From Escherichia phage KIT06, in sequence record OQ349392.1: 64,000 nucleotides of DNA. One strand, written 5' to 3'. The position numbers were made by a program, and so were the translations under genes. Shown piece by piece: positions 4,106 through 40,583 of the stretch (position 1 is the first letter of the stretch; each line of letters begins with the position of its first letter). The notes beneath the pieces are model-generated. The model was given only the letters and a program-made list of their open reading frames with translations. It was not told where the DNA came from and ran no database searches.

Positions 4106-5730
<1,625 letters not shown>

Positions 5731-5741
5731 TTAAGCAGGAT

Positions 5742-5757
5742 GGGGATTTCTCCCCAT
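5742..5757 (-). terminator. hairpin downstream of gene 19
   Basis: tgggga-tttc-tcccca stem-loop between the gene 19 stop (5763) and the gene 20 promoter. Confidence 0.5.
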
Positions 5758-5762
5758 TCATT

Positions 5763-6254
5763 TTATTCCCAATAATCGAGAGCGAGAGTTACTTCAAAGG
5801 TTTGGATTTCATTGTTTGAATCCCAATCTAATTGAAGTTCACCCACGTTAGTAGGCCACAGGCCTTTAATTTCGACTTCTTTTGTTACAGTTTTAGCGTC
5901 ACGAGCATATTGGCGTACAATAGCGCTCTTTTTATACTCTGCTGGTTTTCCACCAGTAATTTCGTTCCCTTGCCCAGCCGCAATGCTTTGCCAGTCAACA
6001 AACTTCTGACGTGCATCATGAGCCTCATCATTCATTACTGTAATAGTCCAGTCATCGAATGTACGATCGCCTGCTACGTTAATTTTACGGTTCATAAACC
6101 CGACTGGAATTTTTTCTACAATACCAGCTGGTAAAGCAGTGGCTTTACACTGAAACGTAAAATTTTGTCCAAGATAAGAAATTTCTACTTGGAACAAGTT
6201 AGGTCGAGCAAAATCACCAGATTCAAACGCTCGTGTTACATCATCTACAAACAT
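5763..6254 (-). CDS. 19: tail tube protein gp19
   Basis: 163-aa ORF; MFVDDVTRAFESGDFARPNLFQVEISYLGQNF...; size and synteny match T4. Confidence 0.95.
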   Translation of the reverse strand: MFVDDVTRAFESGDFARPNLFQVEISYLGQNFTFQCKATALPAGIVEKIPVGFMNRKINVAGDRTFDDWTITVMNDEAHDARQKFVDWQSIAAGQGNEITGGKPAEYKKSAIVRQYARDAKTVTKEVEIKGLWPTNVGELQLDWDSNNEIQTFEVTLALDYWE

Positions 6255-6267
6255 ATTAGCCTCTGTA

Positions 6268-6275
6268 GTATTTAT
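6268..6275 (-). promoter_or_regulatory. late promoter (TATAAATA) for gene 19
   Basis: Plus strand tatttata at 6268-6275, about 14 nt upstream of the gene 19 start; a second copy lies at 6328-6335. Confidence 0.6.
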
Positions 6276-6336
6276 ATCCCTATGTTTAACCTAGGGCATA
6301 TAGAATTAAAGAATTAAGGATATAGTGTATTTATAT

Positions 6337-6354
6337 GGCCTGCCGAAACAGGCC
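6337..6354 (-). terminator. terminator hairpin downstream of gene 18
   Basis: ggcctg-ccgaaa-caggcc stem-loop just past the gene 18 stop (6371). Confidence 0.6.
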
Positions 6355-6370
6355 TTTAGAATGCACCGTA

Positions 6371-8350
6371 TTAACCTGCAAGACCAGTTAACTCATCGAA
6401 ATCTGCACCAGTAGCAGTTGCTACGAAGTTCAAGGTAATGTAGTTAATGCTTCTAGCCGGTTGGATGTAGAATGTTGCAACAAACTCATTTCTATCAATT
6501 ACTGACGGAGTGTTATTTGTTGTATCGCAAACTACACGATATTCATAAATTCCACCGAGAGCTTTAATTCCCTGCAAGTACTGGGAAGTTTCTGTGCGGA
6601 ACGATGAACGAGTAAACGCGTTGTTTAATTCGAACAAACGATATTTTGAACTACGTCCGATATTCGTTTTCAACATATTAAACAGACGACGAACGTTAAT
6701 ACGATCAAATGGAGAAGGAACAGAAGTAGCTGTTTTATCACCATACAATACGTAACCATCACCACCTGTACCAGTTACTGGGTTGATAGCTTCTTGGTAT
6801 AAACGGTCGCGCTGCGCCTGGCGAGTTTCAATAGCAAGTTTAATAACGTTAAGAATCTGGCCACGATTATAACCAGCTGGAGACATCCAAGTCTGAGAAA
6901 CGTTATCAGTTCTTGCGCATAAACCAGCAATATCAGCTGCTAATGGAACCCAACGATTCACATCATTATATTTGTCATACTGATACTTGTAGTTACCATC
7001 AATTGCTGCATAGGTTGAACTGATATTAAAGTTATTATCAGTGTATGAACCTGCTGCAGTTCTCCAATTGACTAAGTTATCAACAGCACGAGTTACAGGA
7101 ATTCCAACCACAGTTTCACGCGGTGGTGAGCACAATACCAAGCAATCTTGGCGAGCATCCCCGATTGAAACAACATGTTTTTGTACAGTAGATGCTGTTT
7201 CTAAAGATTCACCGGCACAAGAACCCGCAATAAACAACTGAACATCAACGGATTCACGGTCAGCAAAGAAGTCCCAAGCTTCCATCAAATCTCCTGCTGT
7301 TACTTCAGCATTTGATGATAATCCGCCAGACAGAGTTAAAATTCCAGAGAAGCCTTCTGGCCAGTTTTGTGCAGTTGCGAAAATATATTCTGAACCACCT
7401 TTTGCGAAAAAGTCATCAATATAGATGTTACTATCGTAAATATCTTTTTCACCACGCTTCGTTGAAAGAACAACGCTTTGAACAATAGCATCATTGCGAC
7501 GAACTATAATAGCGTATTGCGAATCAGTTTGTGGTCCATATCCAAACACAGCTTTAGCAGTAGATGCACGAGTACCACCGCCTGGATAAATTGGCAGTAA
7601 TGCAGAAGCCCCTTTTGCGTAGTCAGCTTTAGATACGATTTCAATTTCAATTTTATCGCCCAACTCACCTGGATAAAGAGCTACTACTCCTGGAATTCCG
7701 TATTTTTCGAGATTTGCTTGAAAGTCAACCGCTGTCATAGCAGCTTCAGCATTTTCAATTTCAGCTAATAAAATACCAGAATCAGTAATAATTTTTCCAA
7801 GAGTTATTACTGCAGCTAAACCAGAGGAAGATGAAGAAATTTCCGCAGTCCAGTTAGAACCTAGTGTTGGATATTCACCGACTTCTTTAGCTTTAGCGAT
7901 AATTTTTGCAGTAGGAATATTAATTTTCTTAATTTTTCCATCTGTGTCTACTTCAGTAATTTTACCTTCAGTTTCAATAGCATCTGAAACATATTTGACC
8001 GTGATTTTATCTCCAACCGCATAGTTACTACCTGGGGTAGAAATAGTGTATTCAATATTACCAGCAATCGGAGATGAGTTTTTAGCGGTATCTCTATCGA
8101 CAGCACGCACAACTCGCAAATCATTTCCATATTGTAAGAAATTCATTGCAGACATAAAATAGTCAGCAGTTTCAGCTGTAGGTTGACCAAAAGTATTAAC
8201 TAAATCTACTTCATTTGTAACCTGTTTGATCTGAAAAGCAGGACCCCACTGGAATTTACCGGCCAAAGCTGCTGTACCAGTAGAGTTATTAACCACGGTG
8301 CTTTGAACCGTAGTTTCTTTGAGCTCAATGCCCGGAGATAATAAAGTCAT
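6371..8350 (-). CDS. 18: contractile tail sheath protein gp18
   Basis: 659-aa ORF; size and synteny match T4 gp18. Confidence 0.96.
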   Translation of the reverse strand: MTLLSPGIELKETTVQSTVVNNSTGTAALAGKFQWGPAFQIKQVTNEVDLVNTFGQPTAETADYFMSAMNFLQYGNDLRVVRAVDRDTAKNSSPIAGNIEYTISTPGSNYAVGDKITVKYVSDAIETEGKITEVDTDGKIKKINIPTAKIIAKAKEVGEYPTLGSNWTAEISSSSSGLAAVITLGKIITDSGILLAEIENAEAAMTAVDFQANLEKYGIPGVVALYPGELGDKIEIEIVSKADYAKGASALLPIYPGGGTRASTAKAVFGYGPQTDSQYAIIVRRNDAIVQSVVLSTKRGEKDIYDSNIYIDDFFAKGGSEYIFATAQNWPEGFSGILTLSGGLSSNAEVTAGDLMEAWDFFADRESVDVQLFIAGSCAGESLETASTVQKHVVSIGDARQDCLVLCSPPRETVVGIPVTRAVDNLVNWRTAAGSYTDNNFNISSTYAAIDGNYKYQYDKYNDVNRWVPLAADIAGLCARTDNVSQTWMSPAGYNRGQILNVIKLAIETRQAQRDRLYQEAINPVTGTGGDGYVLYGDKTATSVPSPFDRINVRRLFNMLKTNIGRSSKYRLFELNNAFTRSSFRTETSQYLQGIKALGGIYEYRVVCDTTNNTPSVIDRNEFVATFYIQPARSINYITLNFVATATGADFDELTGLAG

Positions 8351-8378: not shown

Positions 8379-11519
<3,141 letters not shown>

Positions 11520-32923: not shown

Positions 32924-33196
32924 ATGAAAACATTTAAAGAATTTATCAATGAAGCTACTTTTAACGAAAAAGTAAAAATTAGCAAAGCTGTCAAGACTAT
33001 GATTGATAACATCAATTACCTATATGGTATTGATTTAACTGACTATGTAACAGTTGGTAACAAACGTAACTATTTCGTGTTTGACATCTCTGAACTTGAC
33101 CAGAATCAAATTAACAACATTGAGCGTTTTGCTAATGATAAGGGTCTTCGTCATGAGTCAGCGGGTTATAAAAAATACGCAATTTATTTAAAATGA
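32924..33196 (+). CDS. internal-protein-like capsid-targeted protein (ip cassette 2)
   Basis: 90-aa ORF starting MKTFKEFINEA (CTS-like), own promoter module, unrelated body sequence. Confidence 0.7.
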   Translation: MKTFKEFINEATFNEKVKISKAVKTMIDNINYLYGIDLTDYVTVGNKRNYFVFDISELDQNQINNIERFANDKGLRHESAGYKKYAIYLK

Positions 33197-35406: not shown

Positions 35407-35479
35407 TGGGAATTAGCCAAGTTGGTAAGGCATAGCACTTTGACTGCTAGATGCAAAGGTTCGAGTCCTTTATTCCCAG
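35407..35479 (+). tRNA. tRNA-Gln (anticodon UUG)
   Basis: Cloverleaf folded by hand: acceptor tgggaat/attccca, anticodon loop ctTTGac, T-arm aaagg-ttcgagt-ccttt. Confidence 0.85.
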
Positions 35480-35480
35480 C

Positions 35481-35567
35481 GCGAGAATGGTCAAATTGGT
35501 AAAGGCACAGCACTTAAAATGCTGCGGAATGATTTCCTTGTGGGTTCGAGTCCCACTTCTCGCACCA
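35481..35567 (+). tRNA. tRNA-Leu (anticodon UAA), type II, CCA encoded
   Basis: Acceptor gcgagaa/ttctcgc, anticodon loop ctTAAaa, long variable arm. Confidence 0.85.
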
Positions 35568-35572
35568 AATTT

Positions 35573-35647
<75 letters not shown>

Positions 35648-35657
35648 ATTTAATTTA

Positions 35658-35731
35658 CTCCGTGTAGCTCAGTTTGGTAGAGCGTCTGCTTTGGGAGCAG
35701 AATGTCGCAGGTTCAAATCCTGCCGCGGAGA
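35658..35731 (+). tRNA. tRNA-Pro (anticodon UGG)
   Basis: Acceptor ctccgtg/cgcggag, anticodon loop ttTGGga, T-loop ttcaaat. Confidence 0.8.
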
Positions 35732-35733
35732 CT

Positions 35734-35823
35734 GGAGGCGTGGCAGAGTGGTTTAATGCACCGGTCTTGAAAACCGGCAGTCGCTCCGGCGACTCATAGG
35801 TTCAAATCCTATCGCCTCCGCCA
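35734..35823 (+). tRNA. tRNA-Ser (anticodon UGA), type II
   Basis: Acceptor ggaggcg/cgcctcc, anticodon loop ctTGAaa, long variable arm. Confidence 0.85.
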
Positions 35824-35828
35824 GTTTT

Positions 35829-35904
35829 GCTGATTTAGCTCAGTAGGTAGAGCAACTCACTTGTAATGAGAAGGTCGGCGGTTCGATTCCGTCAATCAGC
35901 ACCA
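35829..35904 (+). tRNA. tRNA-Thr (anticodon UGU)
   Basis: Acceptor gctgatt/aatcagc, anticodon loop ctTGTaa. Confidence 0.85.
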
Positions 35905-35905
35905 A

Positions 35906-35980
35906 GGCCCTGTAGCTGGAAGGTTCAAGCAAGCGACTCATAATCGCCAGATGGTGGTTCAATTCCACCCAGGGCCACCA
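35906..35980 (+). tRNA. tRNA with anticodon CAU (Ile by lysidine modification as in T4, or Met)
   Basis: Acceptor ggccctg/cagggcc, anticodon loop ctCATaa. Confidence 0.8.
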
Positions 35981-35989
35981 AATTAATTT

Positions 35990-36076
35990 GGGGAGTTATC
36001 CCGTAGAGGTAGCGGTGTGGACTGTAAATCCATTGTCATTGCGACTCGGGTGGTTCGACTCCATCACTCCCCACCA
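35990..36076 (+). tRNA. tRNA-Tyr (anticodon GUA), type II
   Basis: Acceptor ggggagt/actcccc, anticodon stem gtgga/tccat, loop ctGTAaa, long variable arm, T-loop ttcgact. Confidence 0.7.
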
Positions 36077-36080
36077 ATTT

Positions 36081-36155
36081 GGATGTGTAGCTCAATGGCA
36101 GAGCGATCGCCTGTTAAGCGATTGGTTATAGGTTCGAATCCTATCACGTCCGCCA
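36081..36155 (+). tRNA. tRNA-Asn (anticodon GUU)
   Basis: Acceptor ggatgtg/cacgtcc, anticodon stem atcgc/gcgat, loop ctGTTaa, T-loop ttcgaat. Confidence 0.75.
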
Positions 36156-36159
36156 AATC

Positions 36160-36235
36160 CGAGGCATAGCTCAGAAGGAAGAGCAAGGACCTTCTAAGTC
36201 CTAGGTCGTAGGTTCGATCCCTATTGCCTCGACCA
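36160..36235 (+). tRNA. tRNA-Arg (anticodon UCU)
   Basis: Acceptor cgaggca/tgcctcg, anticodon stem aggac/gtcct, loop ctTCTaa. Confidence 0.85.
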
Positions 36236-37700: not shown

Positions 37701-38294
37701 ATGAACACACTGAAGAAAATTGTTGATTTTATTCGCACTAAACTTGGTTCTGCAATGGCTAAAAATCTATCTGTTGAAGAACAGTATACTGCTGCAGCAG
37801 CAAAACTGCTTGATAAAATTAAAGACCTAAAAACTGCTTCTGTTAAATCTATTAATGAAGAAAAACGTATTCGTGAACTTATTGTTGAAAAGAATAAACA
37901 GGCTGAATCAAAAGAGCGTGAAATTCGCAAGCTTCTTTCCGAAGGTCAAGATGTAACAATGCATGCTAAACTCGGTTTACTATATCGCCGAACAGCTGAG
38001 CAGTTGACTACTAAAGCTGACGGTTATGCTGAAATGCGAATTGAAATCGCCAAGAAAGTAGTTGAGTTAGATGATGCTCGCCAAGAACTTGCGGTTAAAT
38101 TGGAATATATCCGTGAAACTCGTGCGGCAAATGCCCTTGGAATTAGTACTGCCGATGATGTAGTTGAAATTGCAGCACTGACTAAGGTTGATATTGAAGA
38201 TACCCTTGCTCGAGTTGAAACCTTTAATGGTAATATTTCCGGGGTTGAAACTACCTCTGCCGATGTTCAGGAATACATTAATTCTCTGAAATAA
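37701..38294 (+). CDS. coiled-coil protein, possibly PspA/IM30-like
   Basis: 197-aa ORF, SD aaggaaa upstream; long heptad-rich helical sequence with loose resemblance to PspA. Confidence 0.5.
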
Positions 38295-38299
38295 TGATA

Positions 38300-38315
38300 A
38301 GGGGCTTCGGCCCCT
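38300..38315 (+). terminator. hairpin after ORF 37701..38294
   Basis: aggggc-ttcg-gcccct stem-loop immediately after the stop codon. Confidence 0.5.
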
Positions 38316-38335
38316 ATTACTTGGAGTAAATAGGA

Positions 38336-38944
38336 ATGAAAATGCAAAGTGATTTCAATTCAATGTTTGAAGAGTTCCAAAGACAGGTTGATGTTCCAGA
38401 TCAATTACTAAATGCTCTTAAACGTATGGCAGAAGGACGTAATTACTATTGGGGGTCTTCATATGAAACTGATGAAAGCCTTTCTGGAAGATTTTATAAA
38501 GGTAAAAAGTCTTTAATACGTCCTGGAATACTCATTAAAAGTATTGAATCAATTCATTCATTGACGTGTGATTTTGATGTTGAATTTACTGATTTCATTT
38601 CTCCTGAATGGACAGTTTGTTATTTAAATGACGATTATGATTATCTTGGCGTTTACAGTTTAAGTGACGCATGGTTTAAACGTAATTTACAAAAGTCAAA
38701 TTTATTTTATATTGATACTACGGTAAAATTTCAGGGAAAGAAATATTTCTTTACTCTTATAGTTGATTCTGAAACAAAACATGAAAATAAACGTATTCTT
38801 AGTAAAAAGAATATCTTGACTATTGTTGATGATCTTTTTGATAAATTCGTAGAAAATCCTAATTTTGAAAGCGATTTATTATTAGAAAAATTTGTTAAGG
38901 AATGTAGAGAATATGTCAAAGCCATCACTATACCTTCCAAGTAA
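38336..38944 (+). CDS. hypothetical protein, first of four tandem paralogs sharing a C-terminal FVxECR motif
   Basis: 202-aa ORF; C-terminal ...EKFVKECREYVKAITIPSK. Confidence 0.6.
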   Translation: MKMQSDFNSMFEEFQRQVDVPDQLLNALKRMAEGRNYYWGSSYETDESLSGRFYKGKKSLIRPGILIKSIESIHSLTCDFDVEFTDFISPEWTVCYLNDDYDYLGVYSLSDAWFKRNLQKSNLFYIDTTVKFQGKKYFFTLIVDSETKHENKRILSKKNILTIVDDLFDKFVENPNFESDLLLEKFVKECREYVKAITIPSK

Positions 38945-39305
38945 ACCTGTGAAGTATGAACTAAAGCGTCAGCTAATTCCTACTGACGTATTAATAGGTC
39001 CTGTGACAGCTATATCATTTGTAATTCTATTGATTGTTGGAATGGTTATAGACTTTATGACTGATATTGAATCTGGCGTAATATTTTTGTTAGTATTAAT
39101 TCTTCCATTAGTAGTTCCATTTTTATTGGTACCTGTAAATTGGGTAGGATATTGGTATCAAGGAAGGCATTATCGTAAACGTGTACGTGAATGGAAAGCT
39201 CAGTGTAAAAAGATTAAAAAGGAACACCAGCTTAAACTAAATATGTATGAATTTAATGAAATTATGAAATTTGTTAAGGAATCACGATGCAAAAGCCAAA
39301 ACTAA
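38913..39305 (+). CDS. membrane protein, tandem paralog family
   Basis: Track ORF 38892..39305 (TTG); ATG at 38913; hydrophobic helices; C-terminal ...EIMKFVKESRCKSQN. Confidence 0.55.
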   Translation: MSKPSLYLPSKPVKYELKRQLIPTDVLIGPVTAISFVILLIVGMVIDFMTDIESGVIFLLVLILPLVVPFLLVPVNWVGYWYQGRHYRKRVREWKAQCKKIKKEHQLKLNMYEFNEIMKFVKESRCKSQN

Positions 39306-39661
39306 ATAAAGTCAAATATTCTTTTTCTGAGTCATTTTTAATTTTTGCTGTGGCGTTGGCTGCAGCTCTTGCTGGTAGTCTTATTGGATTAATGATTGAC
39401 TGTATTATTTTAAACATCCGCAGTAACGTCAGCGGTATAGTAGATATAATAGAAGTTTGGAGTGAACTTCATTATACTATAGCGATTTCATTATTTTCAT
39501 TCTTTGGTATTATTTTATATTTTCATTATGATAATTTTAAAATAAATTGGCAAAGAAAAAAGGATTACAAAATACAATTAAAAGAATATAATAACTACAT
39601 GTCTTATATTGAAAATGAATCAATGAAAGAATTCGTGAATGATTGTAGGAAAATCAAATGA
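39287..39661 (+). CDS. membrane protein, tandem paralog family
   Basis: 124-aa ORF with hydrophobic segments; C-terminal ...MKEFVNDCRKIK; ATGA overlap with next gene. Confidence 0.6.
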   Translation: MQKPKLNKVKYSFSESFLIFAVALAAALAGSLIGLMIDCIILNIRSNVSGIVDIIEVWSELHYTIAISLFSFFGIILYFHYDNFKINWQRKKDYKIQLKEYNNYMSYIENESMKEFVNDCRKIK

Positions 39662-40146
39662 TTTTAAAAACTCGCTGGTATGATTTAGATGATGGGGACG
39701 ATGGCATTCCAGTTGATAGAGTTGACTGGAATGGCTGTTCCGAAGATATGAAAAATTTGTTAATTAGGGAGTTTAGAATGGGATATCAGCCAGTTAAGCC
39801 ATCTACTGCAACAGATGATAAGTTTGTATGTATTCAAAATGGCCGCGCTAAGTTAACGAACGCTGATTGGTTCACAGATAAAATTATGATTCTGTGGTAT
39901 ATTATTAGTCTTCCTGTGACATCATTCGTATTTTACTTTTTTATAAAAAATCCAATGGACAGAATAGGAGATTGGATTCTTTTAACCATACTTGTTAATA
40001 TTTTTACAGCAGCAATATTATCTGGGATATGGTACACGTTCATTGAAATGCCATGGCGGCTACGCAGACAACAAAAGATTTTTGATGAAAAGAAATATAC
40101 TCAAAATTTAAATAACTTTATCACTGAATGCAGGAAATTAAAATGA
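39658..40146 (+). CDS. membrane protein, tandem paralog family
   Basis: 162-aa ORF with hydrophobic segments; C-terminal ...LNNFITECRKLK. Confidence 0.6.
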   Translation: MILKTRWYDLDDGDDGIPVDRVDWNGCSEDMKNLLIREFRMGYQPVKPSTATDDKFVCIQNGRAKLTNADWFTDKIMILWYIISLPVTSFVFYFFIKNPMDRIGDWILLTILVNIFTAAILSGIWYTFIEMPWRLRRQQKIFDEKKYTQNLNNFITECRKLK

Positions 40147-40583
40147 AAACATTATCAGCTGGTATTATCTTTATGACAGAAGATAAAGATTTATTCATGG
40201 GACGGGTTACTGGTTCTCGTAAGCCTGGAATGATGGCACATCGCTGGGATATCCCAAAGGGCCGCGTAGAAAATTCTGATTTAAGCGCACTAGATGCAGC
40301 ACGAAGAGAATGTTTAGAAGAGACTGGTTTTAACAATTATAATCCAGACCTTCTAGAAGACCTAGGTGTATTTAAATATTCTAGTAATAAAGACTTACAT
40401 CTGTTTTATTATACGATTCCAGTAGAGCATGAGATGTTTAGAAATTGCCATTGCGAGTCTTATTTTGAAAATAAAGATGGCGTTATGATTCCAGAGATGG
40501 ATGCTTTTGCTCTTATTCCTCGTACTCAGTGGCAATATGTGATGGGTCCTTCACTTTACCGAATAATGAACAACCTCTTTTAA
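40143..40583 (+). CDS. nudE: Nudix hydrolase NudE (e.1)
   Basis: Nudix box GRVENSDLSALDAARRECLEETGF; track ORF starts at 40128, but the ATG at 40143 has the SD aggaaa. Confidence 0.8.
   Translation: MKTLSAGIIFMTEDKDLFMGRVTGSRKPGMMAHRWDIPKGRVENSDLSALDAARRECLEETGFNNYNPDLLEDLGVFKYSSNKDLHLFYYTIPVEHEMFRNCHCESYFENKDGVMIPEMDAFALIPRTQWQYVMGPSLYRIMNNLF

What the first reader, a model, noticed from the sequence alone, without database searches (positions are those of the whole stretch)
38336..40146. Tandem array of four paralogous genes whose conserved C-terminal F-V-x-E-C-R-K codons coincide with the ribosome-binding site of the next gene
Four consecutive ORFs end with FVKECREYVK..., KFVKESRCKSQN, EFVNDCRKIK and NFITECRKLK. 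At nucleotide level the shared block (for example aaatttgttaaggaat in the first two) places an AGGAA-like SD 6-12 nt before the next ATG, and three junctions overlap. Three members carry N-terminal transmembrane helices. This looks like serial duplication of a cassette in which the gene end and downstream translation-initiation signal are one recombination module. Function is unknown; they may be membrane-targeted host-interaction factors.
Basis: seen in the sequence. Interest (0 to 1): 0.55.

Follow-up and report, generated by a model that had tools for sequence, protein, structure and literature searches.

The report
Shared C-terminal tag on T4 genes
Four neighbouring early genes of a T4-like phage (e.5, e.4, e.3, e.2) encode largely unrelated proteins that all end in the same short, strongly conserved peptide (F-I/V-K-x-C-R-K), found on at least 20 protein types across T4-like phages; the ribosome-binding site of the next gene is written through its flexible positions, and what the peptide binds is still unknown.

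Summary
The window is a Tequatrovirus, and the four ORFs are T4 genes e.5, e.4, e.3 and e.2, lying between e.6 and nudE/e. F[VI]x[ED][CS]R occurs four times in the six-frame translation of all 64 kb, always at these four C-termini (0.005 expected).

Only e.3 and e.4 look like paralogues. e.5 shares nothing with the others except the motif. The junctions share no DNA cassette beyond one 16-nt block.

The motif is a peptide-level feature. Across T4-like genera, 85 proteins in 20 sequence clusters (soluble, two-TM and e.2-type) end in φxxF[IV]KxCR[KRG]. All synonymous codons are used, including all six Arg codons, and these residues are often the only invariant columns.

The Shine-Dalgarno overlap is genuine dual coding but secondary. 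Depending on where the next ATG lies, the SD uses positions 3-4 (AAGGAA, AAAGGA, GAGGAA) or the Arg codon (AGG/AGA), or it lies outside the motif (22 of 72 junctions).

Most likely this is a cytoplasmic amphipathic-helix docking tag shared by early accessory proteins. The partner is unknown. All four T4 proteins are detected in published proteomics.

The parts
38336..38944 (+). e.5 orthologue: soluble 202-aa protein, first carrier of the tag
   Evidence: T4 annotation. phrog_2607 at E = 1e-109. No TM segment. The body is an orphan: an exhaustive hmmsearch finds only itself and fragments.
38891..38908 (+). Tag core F-V-K-E-C-R of e.5, followed by the extension EYVKAITIPSK; codons TTT GTT AAG GAA TGT AGA
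   Evidence: It lies in the last predicted helix, residues 181-196, of a low-confidence AF2 model.
38897..38901 (+). AAGGA SD-like core for e.4 (ATG 38913, 11 nt downstream), made by the K-E codons at tag positions 3-4
38913..39305 (+). e.4 orthologue: 130-aa two-TM hairpin protein with a basic 55-aa C-tail; overlaps e.5 by 32 nt
   Evidence: Charge distribution by segment: N-terminus 5/2, loop 0/4, tail 15/5 (K+R/D+E).
39270..39287 (+). Tag core F-V-K-E-S-R of e.4, with the Cys displaced to +6 (..ESRCK..)
39276..39280 (+). AAGGA SD for e.3 (ATG 39287, 6 nt downstream), again made by the K-E codons
39287..39661 (+). e.3 orthologue: 124-aa two-TM hairpin protein; overlaps e.4 by 19 nt; plausible paralogue of e.4
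39632..39649 (+). Tag core F-V-N-D-C-R of e.3; codons TTC GTG AAT GAT TGT AGG
39647..39650 (+). AGGA SD for e.2 (ATG 39658, 7 nt downstream), made by the rare Arg codon AGG plus the following Lys codon
   Evidence: AGG is 4.8% of Arg codons in the window.
39658..40146 (+). e.2 orthologue: 162 aa, consisting of a 75-aa soluble N-domain, a two-TM hairpin and a basic tail; ATGA overlap with e.3
   Evidence: AF2 helices at 75-96 and 103-160. In 24 divergent homologues only C158 and R159 are invariant.
40117..40134 (+). Tag core F-I-T-E-C-R of e.2; codons TTT ATC ACT GAA TGC AGG
40132..40135 (+). AGGA SD for nudE (ATG 40143, 7 nt downstream), made by Arg AGG plus Lys
40143..40583 (+). nudE (Nudix hydrolase), the last cistron coupled to the array; ATGA overlap with the e.2 stop
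   Evidence: Pfam NUDIX at E = 8e-14. Homologues in other genera start MKELSAG.., which favours ATG 40143 over ATG 40128.
37701..38294 (+). e.6: highly conserved 197-aa coiled-coil-like protein, located directly upstream of the array in most genera sampled
   Evidence: No relative by PDB, Pfam or NCBIfam sequence search.
38297..38317 (.). GC-rich hairpin with a UUCG loop, separating e.6 from e.5
   Evidence: The equivalent site is annotated as a terminator in phage PhAPEC2.

Best explanation
The four ORFs are the T4 early genes e.5, e.4, e.3 and e.2. What links them is a short C-terminal peptide, not common descent of whole genes. Its consensus is (L/F/I)-x-x-F-(I/V)-K-x-C-R-(K/R/G), placed 1-15 residues before the stop.

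Shown: the peptide is under strong purifying selection at the amino-acid level. It is attached to many unrelated bodies (soluble e.5-type proteins, short two-TM hairpins, e.2-type proteins, small soluble proteins) throughout T4-like phages. It occurs only in the e.6-to-nudE/e locus.

Also shown: the genes are tightly packed and overlapping, and the next cistron's Shine-Dalgarno sequence is threaded through the permissive parts of the tag. If the next ATG follows within 5 nt, positions 3-4 are always SD-forming codon pairs (K-E as AAG GAA, K-G as AAA GGA, E-E as GAG GAA). If the ATG is 5-12 nt away, the Arg is encoded by AGG or AGA followed by K, R or G. If the ATG is farther away, positions 3-4 are free and AGG is rare.

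Inferred: the tag is an amphipathic alpha-helix, with the hydrophobic face at positions -3, 0, +1 and +4 and a basic flank. It is exposed in the cytoplasm at the end of a 33-55-residue basic tail.

Inferred with less certainty: it works as a common docking motif. It would bring a changeable set of early accessory proteins to one conserved partner, or to each other, at the inner face of the membrane. The partner is not identified.
For: Identity: 97.6% DNA identity to Tequatroviruses; synteny with the T4 annotation; PHROG matches.

Non-chance: 4 of 4 motif occurrences at the C-termini against 0.0055 expected. No other carrier in the T4 genome.

Breadth: found in Mosigvirus, Dhakavirus, Klebsiella phages including Marfa, other IMG/VR T4-like contigs with e.6 at 60-65% identity, Karamvirus, Aeromonas Biquartavirus and probably RB43. 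85 distinct carriers fall into 20 blastp clusters once the tag is removed.

Peptide-level selection: F, I/V, C and R are encoded by TTT/TTC, by ATT/ATC/ATA/GTT/GTG/GTC/GTA, by TGT/TGC and by all six Arg codons. They are the only invariant columns in e.2 alignments reaching down to 13-16% identity. They are 3 of 5 invariant columns in the e.5 superfamily, and the motif's F is the single invariant column among 31 short two-TM proteins.

Unrelated bodies: hhalign finds only 9-21 aligned columns, and nothing once the motif is cut.

Dual coding: 29 of 29 junctions with the ATG less than 5 nt after the tag have GGA/GGG/GAGG-forming pairs at positions 3-4, and none uses AGG for Arg. 20 of 23 with the ATG 5-12 nt away use AGG or AGA, against 23% genome-wide. 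In 22 of 72 junctions the SD lies wholly outside the tag.

Helix and topology: the AF2 secondary structure is helical through the tag in both e.2 and e.5. The hydrophobic moment is 0.52 against a background of 0.27 +/- 0.15. Inter-TM loops are acidic and the C-tails are net basic.

Expression: T4 e.5/e.4 are early RNA and early protein, e.2 is early RNA and middle protein, and e.3 is early RNA and late protein (PMC9697503 supplement).
Against: No partner was identified, and no experiment bears on function.

Both AF2 models are low-confidence (mean pLDDT 64 and 59), so only the secondary structure is usable.

The mean hydrophobicity of the tag is negative. A membrane-surface role is therefore not favoured but is not excluded either.

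Some e.4-position members lack the Cys (FIKEVR, FIKNVR, FIKNMR, FIESAR), so Cys chemistry cannot be essential in all of them.

Junction counts are not phylogenetically independent; roughly 10 or more lineages per class is my estimate.

That all carriers bind one common partner is an inference from shared sequence alone. A degron, or a purely structural helix cap, would leave the same signature.
Confidence: 0.55

Rival explanations
1. The array arose by serial duplication of a cassette in which the gene end and the downstream translation-initiation region form one recombination module. The shared peptide is mainly a footprint of that DNA module.
For: e.3 and e.4 are plausible paralogues. An exact 16-nt block is shared by the e.5 and e.4 ends. 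The tag sits on non-homologous bodies, which some past recombination at gene ends could explain. The locus is a variable region in which gene content differs between genera.
Against: DNA identity does not extend beyond the 16 nt, and unrelated repeats of the same size occur in the same stretch. The 16 nt are explained by the identical K-F-V-K-E peptide plus the forced AAGGAA. The e.3 and e.2 ends use different codons. Across phages all synonymous codons occur while the residues stay fixed, and the tag persists where the SD lies elsewhere or the next gene is 38-82 nt away.
Confidence: 0.15
2. The tag is an interfacial or membrane-surface amphipathic helix, comparable to the MinD or FtsA membrane-targeting sequences or to the amphipathic helix of SecE. 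It would tether or orient the proteins on the cytoplasmic face of the inner membrane rather than bind a protein.
For: Amphipathic pattern with a basic flank and a high hydrophobic moment. Most carriers are membrane proteins. The tail profile's best PDB matches include the archaeal SecE helix LKEFIEECRR.
Against: Mean hydrophobicity is negative (about -0.25), and the strict conservation of C and R is unusual for a lipid-binding helix. The SecE match is not significant: E is 0.36-0.53, it falls to E = 2 with e.5-type tails only, a dynein segment scores equally well, and E. coli SecE is not hit. No tail hits Pfam SecE at E of 1 or less.
Confidence: 0.12
3. The tag is a shared C-terminal degradation or turnover signal, recognised by a host AAA+ protease such as ClpXP, FtsH or Lon. 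It would set the lifetime of these early proteins.
For: It has a terminal position, with basic residues at the extreme C-terminus. The genes are early. That some ClpX signals are basic C-terminal peptides is from my own knowledge and was not tested here.
Against: e.5-type proteins carry 5-19 varied residues after the tag, so the true C-terminus is not conserved. The four T4 proteins fall into three different protein temporal classes. No sequence evidence links the tag to a known degron.
Confidence: 0.08
4. The similarity is a by-product of nucleotide-level selection for a ribosome-binding site, or simply chance, with no function for the peptide.
For: At all four window junctions the SD lies inside the tag. 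K-E, R-K and R-G are SD-compatible codon pairs.
Against: An SD cannot explain the F, I/V and C codons, nor the use of CGN Arg codons. 22 of 72 junctions have the SD outside the tag. The chance expectation is 0.0055 against 4 observed.
Confidence: 0.02

Closest known systems
T4 genes e.5, e.4, e.3 and e.2 (NP_049741 to NP_049738; PHROGs 2607, 2604, 2330, 2203; precomputed Pfam tags PF26876 for e.5 and PF26896 for e.2)
   Same: The window genes are orthologues of these, with the same order e.6, e.5, e.4, e.3, e.2, nudE, e.
   Different: Each is filed as a separate family of hypothetical or predicted membrane proteins. I found no annotation or paper noting the shared C-terminal tag. T4's own e.2 is truncated by two compensating indels.
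Capsid targeting sequence (CTS) of the T4 internal proteins IPI/IPII/IPIII (MKT-Y/F-x-EF-I/L-x-E); function recalled from my own knowledge
   Same: A short conserved terminal peptide shared by otherwise unrelated proteins encoded in a variable accessory locus. Four such genes lie in this window, at 32924, 33257, 41186 and 41530.
   Different: The CTS is N-terminal, ends in a gp21 cleavage site and targets proteins into the prohead. The tag here is C-terminal, its Glu is not conserved, and most carriers are membrane proteins.
Translationally coupled, overlapping cistrons with the SD inside the upstream ORF (ATGA-type junctions)
   Same: Overlaps of 4, 4, 19 and 32 nt, with the SD 6-11 nt upstream of each start inside the preceding gene. 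This is common in the window: 28 of 62 junctions.
   Different: Here the SD has to share codons with a constrained peptide. The solution switches between positions 3-4 and the Arg codon according to spacing.
PeSL mobile regulatory cassettes (promoter-early stem-loops) proposed to mediate modular shuffling in T4-type genomes; Arbiol et al. 2010, recalled from memory and not read here
   Same: Conserved elements at gene boundaries in variable regions of T4-like genomes.
   Different: PeSLs are non-coding promoter-plus-hairpin repeats with DNA-level identity. Here there is no DNA repeat beyond 16 nt, and conservation is at the peptide level.
Archaeal SecE N-terminal amphipathic helix (..LKEFIEECRR..; PDB 1rh5_B, 3dkn_B)
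   Same: Near-identical decapeptide, amphipathic, next to a membrane.
   Different: The match is statistically insignificant (E 0.36-2) and comes from archaeal rather than host SecE. It precedes a TM segment instead of ending the protein. Pfam SecE is not matched.

Membership tests
T4 e.5/e.4/e.3/e.2 orthologous groups | Significant full-length sequence match to the family profiles | tested here: met
   phrog_2607 at 1e-109, phrog_2604 at 4e-71, phrog_2330 at 1e-61 and phrog_2203 at 4e-79. The protein searches return hits carrying PF26876 and PF26896.
T4 e.5/e.4/e.3/e.2 orthologous groups | Conserved gene order e.6, e.5, e.4, e.3, e.2, nudE, e | tested here: met
   T4 annotation compared with the window ORFs.
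Tandem paralogue array (all four genes homologous) | Detectable homology outside the shared motif | tested here: not met
   hhalign with the motif removed gives 42% for e.3-e.4 (inconclusive) and 2% or less for every pair involving e.5 or e.2.
Translationally coupled overlapping cistrons | Same strand, stop/start overlap or a gap of a few nt, SD within the upstream ORF | tested here: met
   Overlaps of 32, 19, 4 and 4 nt, with SD cores 6-11 nt upstream of each ATG.
Translationally coupled overlapping cistrons | Downstream translation depends on translation of the upstream cistron | not testable with these tools
   This needs reporter fusions with premature stop codons upstream.
T4 capsid targeting sequence | N-terminal position and a terminal (L/I)-x-E gp21 cleavage site | tested here: not met
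   The tag is C-terminal. Position +3 is E in only about 5.5 of 20 weighted clusters.
PeSL-type mobile boundary cassette / recombination module | Repeated DNA segment (tens of nt) at gene boundaries, with identity above that imposed by the protein | tested here: not met
   The longest junction repeat is 16 nt, equal in size to chance repeats. Codons differ between junctions.
SecE / Sec61-gamma family | Significant match to the family profile or to solved SecE chains | tested here: not met
   No Pfam SecE hit at E of 1 or less for 43 tails. PDB E values are 0.36-0.53, falling to 2 with e.5-type tails. E. coli SecE is not hit.
Ribosomal protein S18-like segment | Match across the family, including the most conserved tag residues | tested here: not met
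   Only 3 of 43 tails match (best E = 0.002, below the gathering score). By sequence recalled from memory, C and R have no counterpart in S18.
Membrane-targeting amphipathic helix (MinD/FtsA type) | Terminal amphipathic helix hydrophobic enough to partition into the bilayer | tested here: inconclusive
   The hydrophobic moment is 0.52 (top 6% of background), but mean hydrophobicity is about -0.25. Lipid binding was not tested.
Anti-phage defence or known anti-defence proteins | Match to PADLOC models | tested here: not met
   No hit below E = 0.01.

The most novel reading that the evidence does not exclude
The tag is a C-terminal address label, a counterpart to the N-terminal capsid-targeting sequence of the neighbouring internal-protein genes. 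It would plug an exchangeable repertoire of early effector bodies (soluble and membrane) into one conserved hub at the inner membrane. Because the label and the next gene's initiation signal share the same 20 nt, new bodies captured at this locus would acquire targeting and coupled expression together. That would make the locus a plug-and-play effector cassette system across Straboviridae.
Probability: 0.15. Interest if true: 0.75.

Novelty: new variant of a known kind. Interest (0 to 1): 0.5.

Why it matters
T4 is the best-studied large lytic phage, yet about half of its genes, including e.2-e.5, have no known function.

A 7-12-residue tag that stays invariant while the proteins carrying it diverge beyond recognition gives a concrete experimental handle. 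One peptide can be used for pull-downs, mutagenesis and localisation of a whole group of early accessory proteins across T4-like phages of Escherichia, Klebsiella, Enterobacter and Aeromonas.

The junctions are also a clean natural example of how a Shine-Dalgarno site and a constrained peptide share codons. There are three alternative solutions, chosen by spacing. This is useful for gene-start annotation and for recoding or engineering T4-like genomes without breaking downstream translation.

Tried and rejected
1. Pfam, NCBIfam and PADLOC scans of e.6 and e.2-e.5 gave nothing above threshold.
2. PDB sequence searches with e.6 and e.5, and with an e.6 family profile, gave nothing. My idea that e.6 is PspA/Vipp1-like has no sequence support.
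3. AF2 models of e.2 and e.5 are low-confidence. A Foldseek search of the e.5 model against the PDB gave its best hit at E = 0.015 and TM 0.17 (small alarmone synthetases), which is meaningless.
4. An exhaustive hmmsearch of the e.5 family against 1.84 billion representatives found only itself and fragments.
5. The SecE-helix and ribosomal-S18 resemblances of the tail are not significant and do not involve the conserved C and R (S18), or do not hold up with a second profile (SecE).
6. A tail-profile search of the 5.8-billion-protein set collected only 23 candidates and found no new carrier bodies.
7. A back-translated FIKECRK scan of viral contigs found, outside T4-like contigs, only an internal occurrence in one unrelated 176-aa family plus out-of-frame hits.
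8. Literature searches for e.2-e.5 found no functional study.
9. A gp21 cleavage-site reading (I/V-x-E) was rejected because the Glu is not conserved.
10. The sigma-70 promoter scan was no better than shuffles: 19 found against 15.2 expected.
Full report
**What the region is.** The window is a Tequatrovirus genome segment. The 2-kb stretch is 97.6% identical to Escherichia phage EP01 and matches 505 T4-like records. Compared with the curated T4 record, the window's + strand is T4's minus strand, and the four ORFs are e.5 (38336-38944), e.4 (38913-39305), e.3 (39287-39661) and e.2 (39658-40146). They are preceded by e.6 (37701-38294) and followed by nudE and the lysozyme gene e. Each matches its own PHROG at E values from 1e-62 to 1e-109. 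My Pfam copy has no model for any of them. The big protein database tags e.5 and e.2 relatives with newer accessions, PF26876 and PF26896.

**Check of the observation.** The four C-termini read ..EKFVKECREYVKAITIPSK..MKFVKESRCKSQN..KEFVNDCRKIK and ..NNFITECRKLK. The pattern F[VI]x[ED][CS]R occurs exactly four times in the six-frame translation of the 64 kb, and only there. Residue shuffles of 91 called proteins give 0.05 hits overall and 0.0055 in C-terminal tails. In the remaining 105 kb of the T4 genome no other ORF of 50 aa or more carries [FW][IV]xxC[RK].

The SD-like cores lie 11, 6, 7 and 7 nt before the starts of e.4, e.3, e.2 and nudE. The genes overlap by 32, 19, 4 and 4 nt.
- The membrane members each have a two-TM hairpin. 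In e.2 it lies behind a 75-residue soluble domain.
- An SD inside the upstream gene is the rule rather than the exception in this genome: 28 of 62 same-strand junctions have a gap of 4 nt or less.

**Are the genes paralogues?** Pairwise BLASTP is marginal. I collected the locus from 24 T4-like genomes and contigs, using the conserved e.6 as an anchor. Family alignments were then compared with hhalign, with and without the tail.
- e.3 against e.4 aligns over the full length (88% probability; 42% without the motif), so these are plausible paralogues.
- e.2 against e.3 shares only 21 C-terminal columns.
- e.5 shares only the 9-10 motif columns with any membrane protein, and nothing remains once the motif is cut.

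The e.5 body is an orphan. An exhaustive HMMER search of 1.84 billion representatives returns only itself and fragments.

**The motif is a family-wide peptide tag.** Downstream of e.6, every genus sampled has one to six genes ending in the motif.

| Genus or phage | Carriers (C-terminal sequence) |
|---|---|
| Mosigvirus | e.5, e.4, e.3, e.2 plus a fifth carrier, ORF133c (..ENFIKECRGK) |
| Dhakavirus | ..RFIKECREYAK.., ..TFIKECKS, ..SFIEECRK, ..LFLEYCRSDVQL |
| Klebsiella phages (Marfa-type) and other T4-like contigs with e.6 at 60-65% identity | ..EFIKHCREAVNG, ..SFIKYCRGKHVS, ..NWIKGCRK, ..NWVKGCRK, ..DFIKNCRR, ..NFIKSCRK, ..LFIAKCRAK |
| Karamvirus PG7 | five carriers |
| Aeromonas Biquartavirus | ..LFVDYCRRTASKK |
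| RB43 | ..KFIHSCKKNV.. |

With the tag removed, the 85 distinct carriers fall into 20 BLAST clusters. These include several soluble types without TM segments. The cluster-weighted consensus is (L/F/I) at -3, F/W at 0, I/V at +1, K at +2, C at +4, R at +5 and K/R/G at +6. In e.2 alignments reaching 13-16% identity the only invariant columns are I, C and R, or C and R alone. In a 20-sequence e.5 superfamily alignment three of five invariant columns are F, C and R. Among 31 short two-TM proteins the only invariant column is the F.

**Peptide or nucleotide selection?** The four conserved residues are encoded by every available synonymous codon, including all six Arg codons. This is the signature of selection on the peptide.

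The SD of the next gene is accommodated in three ways, according to spacing (72 distinct junctions):

| Next ATG relative to the tag | Junctions | Positions 3-4 | Arg codon |
|---|---|---|---|
| less than 5 nt after | 29 | always AAGGAA, AAGGAG, GAGGAA, AAAGGA, AAAGGG, ATGGAA or AGGAGC | never AGG |
| 5-12 nt after | 23 | free (TE, ND, SD, KN, KQ, KY and others; K-E written AAAGAA) | AGG or AGA in 20 of 23, usually followed by K, R or G |
| more than 12 nt after | 20 | free | AGG only 1 of 20 (CGN 12, AGA 7) |

Genome-wide, AGG plus AGA make up 23% of Arg codons. In 22 junctions the SD lies entirely outside the tag. These counts are not phylogenetically independent. Each class does include many different gene families and genera.

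**The recombination-module idea.** At the DNA level the only junction-specific repeat is the exact 16-mer AAATTTGTTAAGGAAT shared by the e.5 and e.4 ends. It is no longer than unrelated repeats in the same 1.9 kb, and it is accounted for by the identical K-F-V-K-E peptide plus the forced AAGGAA. The e.3 and e.2 ends use different codons. Past shuffling of the tag onto new bodies cannot be excluded, and would explain its presence on unrelated proteins. Present sequences carry no cassette-like DNA signature.

**Likely structure and place of action.** AF2 models are low-confidence (pLDDT 64 and 59). They do place the tag in an alpha-helix, continuous with TM2 in e.2 (103-160) and as the last helix in e.5 (181-196). 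The spacing -3, 0, +1, +4 puts the hydrophobic residues on one helical face with K/R alongside. The 11-mer hydrophobic moment is 0.52, against 0.27 +/- 0.15 for the background, while mean hydrophobicity is negative.

In the two-TM carriers the inter-TM loop is acidic and nearly free of K/R, and the 33-55-residue C-tail is net basic. By the positive-inside rule (established knowledge) this places the tail and tag in the cytoplasm. e.5-type proteins have no signal peptide or TM segment.

**Function.** No database or paper gives a function. Published T4 omics classify all four as early transcripts and detect all four proteins: e.5/e.4 early, e.2 middle, e.3 late (PMC9697503 supplement).

The best-supported reading is a shared cytoplasmic docking helix that directs a variable set of early accessory proteins to a common partner, or to each other, at the inner membrane. 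I rate the descriptive core (peptide tag plus SD dual coding) as very likely, and the docking function at about 40-50%. Alternatives are a membrane-surface helix, a turnover signal, or a historical recombination module.

Resemblances to archaeal SecE (LKEFIEECRR) and to ribosomal protein S18 turned up in profile searches. Both are statistically insignificant and fail a second test.

**Novelty and verdict.** The genes are long known as hypothetical ORFs, and overlapping coupled cistrons are commonplace. Two things appear to be undescribed: a single C-terminal tag, confined to this locus, that unites at least 20 otherwise unrelated protein clusters across Straboviridae; and the spacing-dependent way the next gene's SD is written through it. 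I class it as a new variant of a known kind (terminal peptide tags such as the T4 capsid-targeting sequence, and coupled junctions). It is of moderate interest and readily testable.

Noticed in passing
L005 (PhAPEC2) 4733-5527; L006 (JS10) 5291-6535; L020/L021/L025 about 10.6-12.4 kb; L050 (PG7) 10302-10828: A second C-terminal-motif family occurs in the same variable locus of non-Tequatrovirus T4-likes. Each genome has 3-6 small acidic proteins ending in G-W-V-(S/A)-S-S-x-x-C-stop. They always lie near a conserved 305-322-aa protein (MLLVIGSRALHHHGLI..) and a conserved 228-aa protein (..VYLEFPMEGW). The family is absent from the window.
   Followed up: partly
L001 (T4 NC_000866) 67475-67960, corresponding to window 39658-40146: The T4 reference e.2 (102 aa) is a truncated version of the 162-aa gene. 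It has a 1-nt deletion in an A-run and a compensating 1-nt insertion 79 nt downstream. The last 36 codons, including NFITECRKLK, are back in frame.
   Followed up: yes
window 40128-40146: The nudE start is ambiguous. ATG 40143 (MKTLSAG..) has AGGA 7 nt upstream, makes an ATGA overlap with the e.2 stop, and matches the N-termini of homologues (MKELSAG..). The T4-style 151-aa annotation instead starts at the ATG corresponding to 40128, inside the e.2 tag codons.
   Followed up: partly
window 32924, 33257, 41186, 41530: Four genes begin with the internal-protein capsid-targeting sequence MKT(Y/F)xEF(I/L)xE. Two lie next to the lysozyme gene (ipIII and ipII) and two lie about 8 kb upstream.
   Followed up: partly
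window 35407-36235: There is an array of 10 tRNA genes (Gln, Leu, Gly, Pro, Ser, Thr, Met-CAT, Tyr, Asn, Arg), against 8 in T4, and no segB homing-endonuclease gene between them. No Rfam family matches the downstream stretch where T4 has rnaC and rnaD.
   Followed up: no
window 38297-38317: A GC-rich hairpin with a UUCG loop lies between e.6 and e.5. The equivalent site is annotated as a terminator in phage PhAPEC2. The + strand T-tract is weak, so it may be an RNA-stability or processing element rather than a terminator.
   Followed up: no
window 40128-40583 (nudE) against phrog_1185: The PHROG 'nudix hydrolase' profile is 301 positions long, and nudE matches only positions 143-289. This suggests that some phages have a longer or fused form upstream of the Nudix domain.
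   Followed up: no
L028, L030-L032, L034-L037, L041-L044, L046-L048: An unrelated 176-aa viral protein family contains the same heptapeptide internally (..DVFIKECRKEDVLRR..), 65 residues before its end. This is probably coincidence.
   Followed up: no
public records matched by window 37701-40146: Deposited annotations of these genes are inconsistent. e.6 is often called 'host specificity protein', and genes of the e.2-e.4 stretch are sometimes labelled 'sulfurtransferase' or 'DNA primase'. None of these labels is supported by any profile search here.
   Followed up: no
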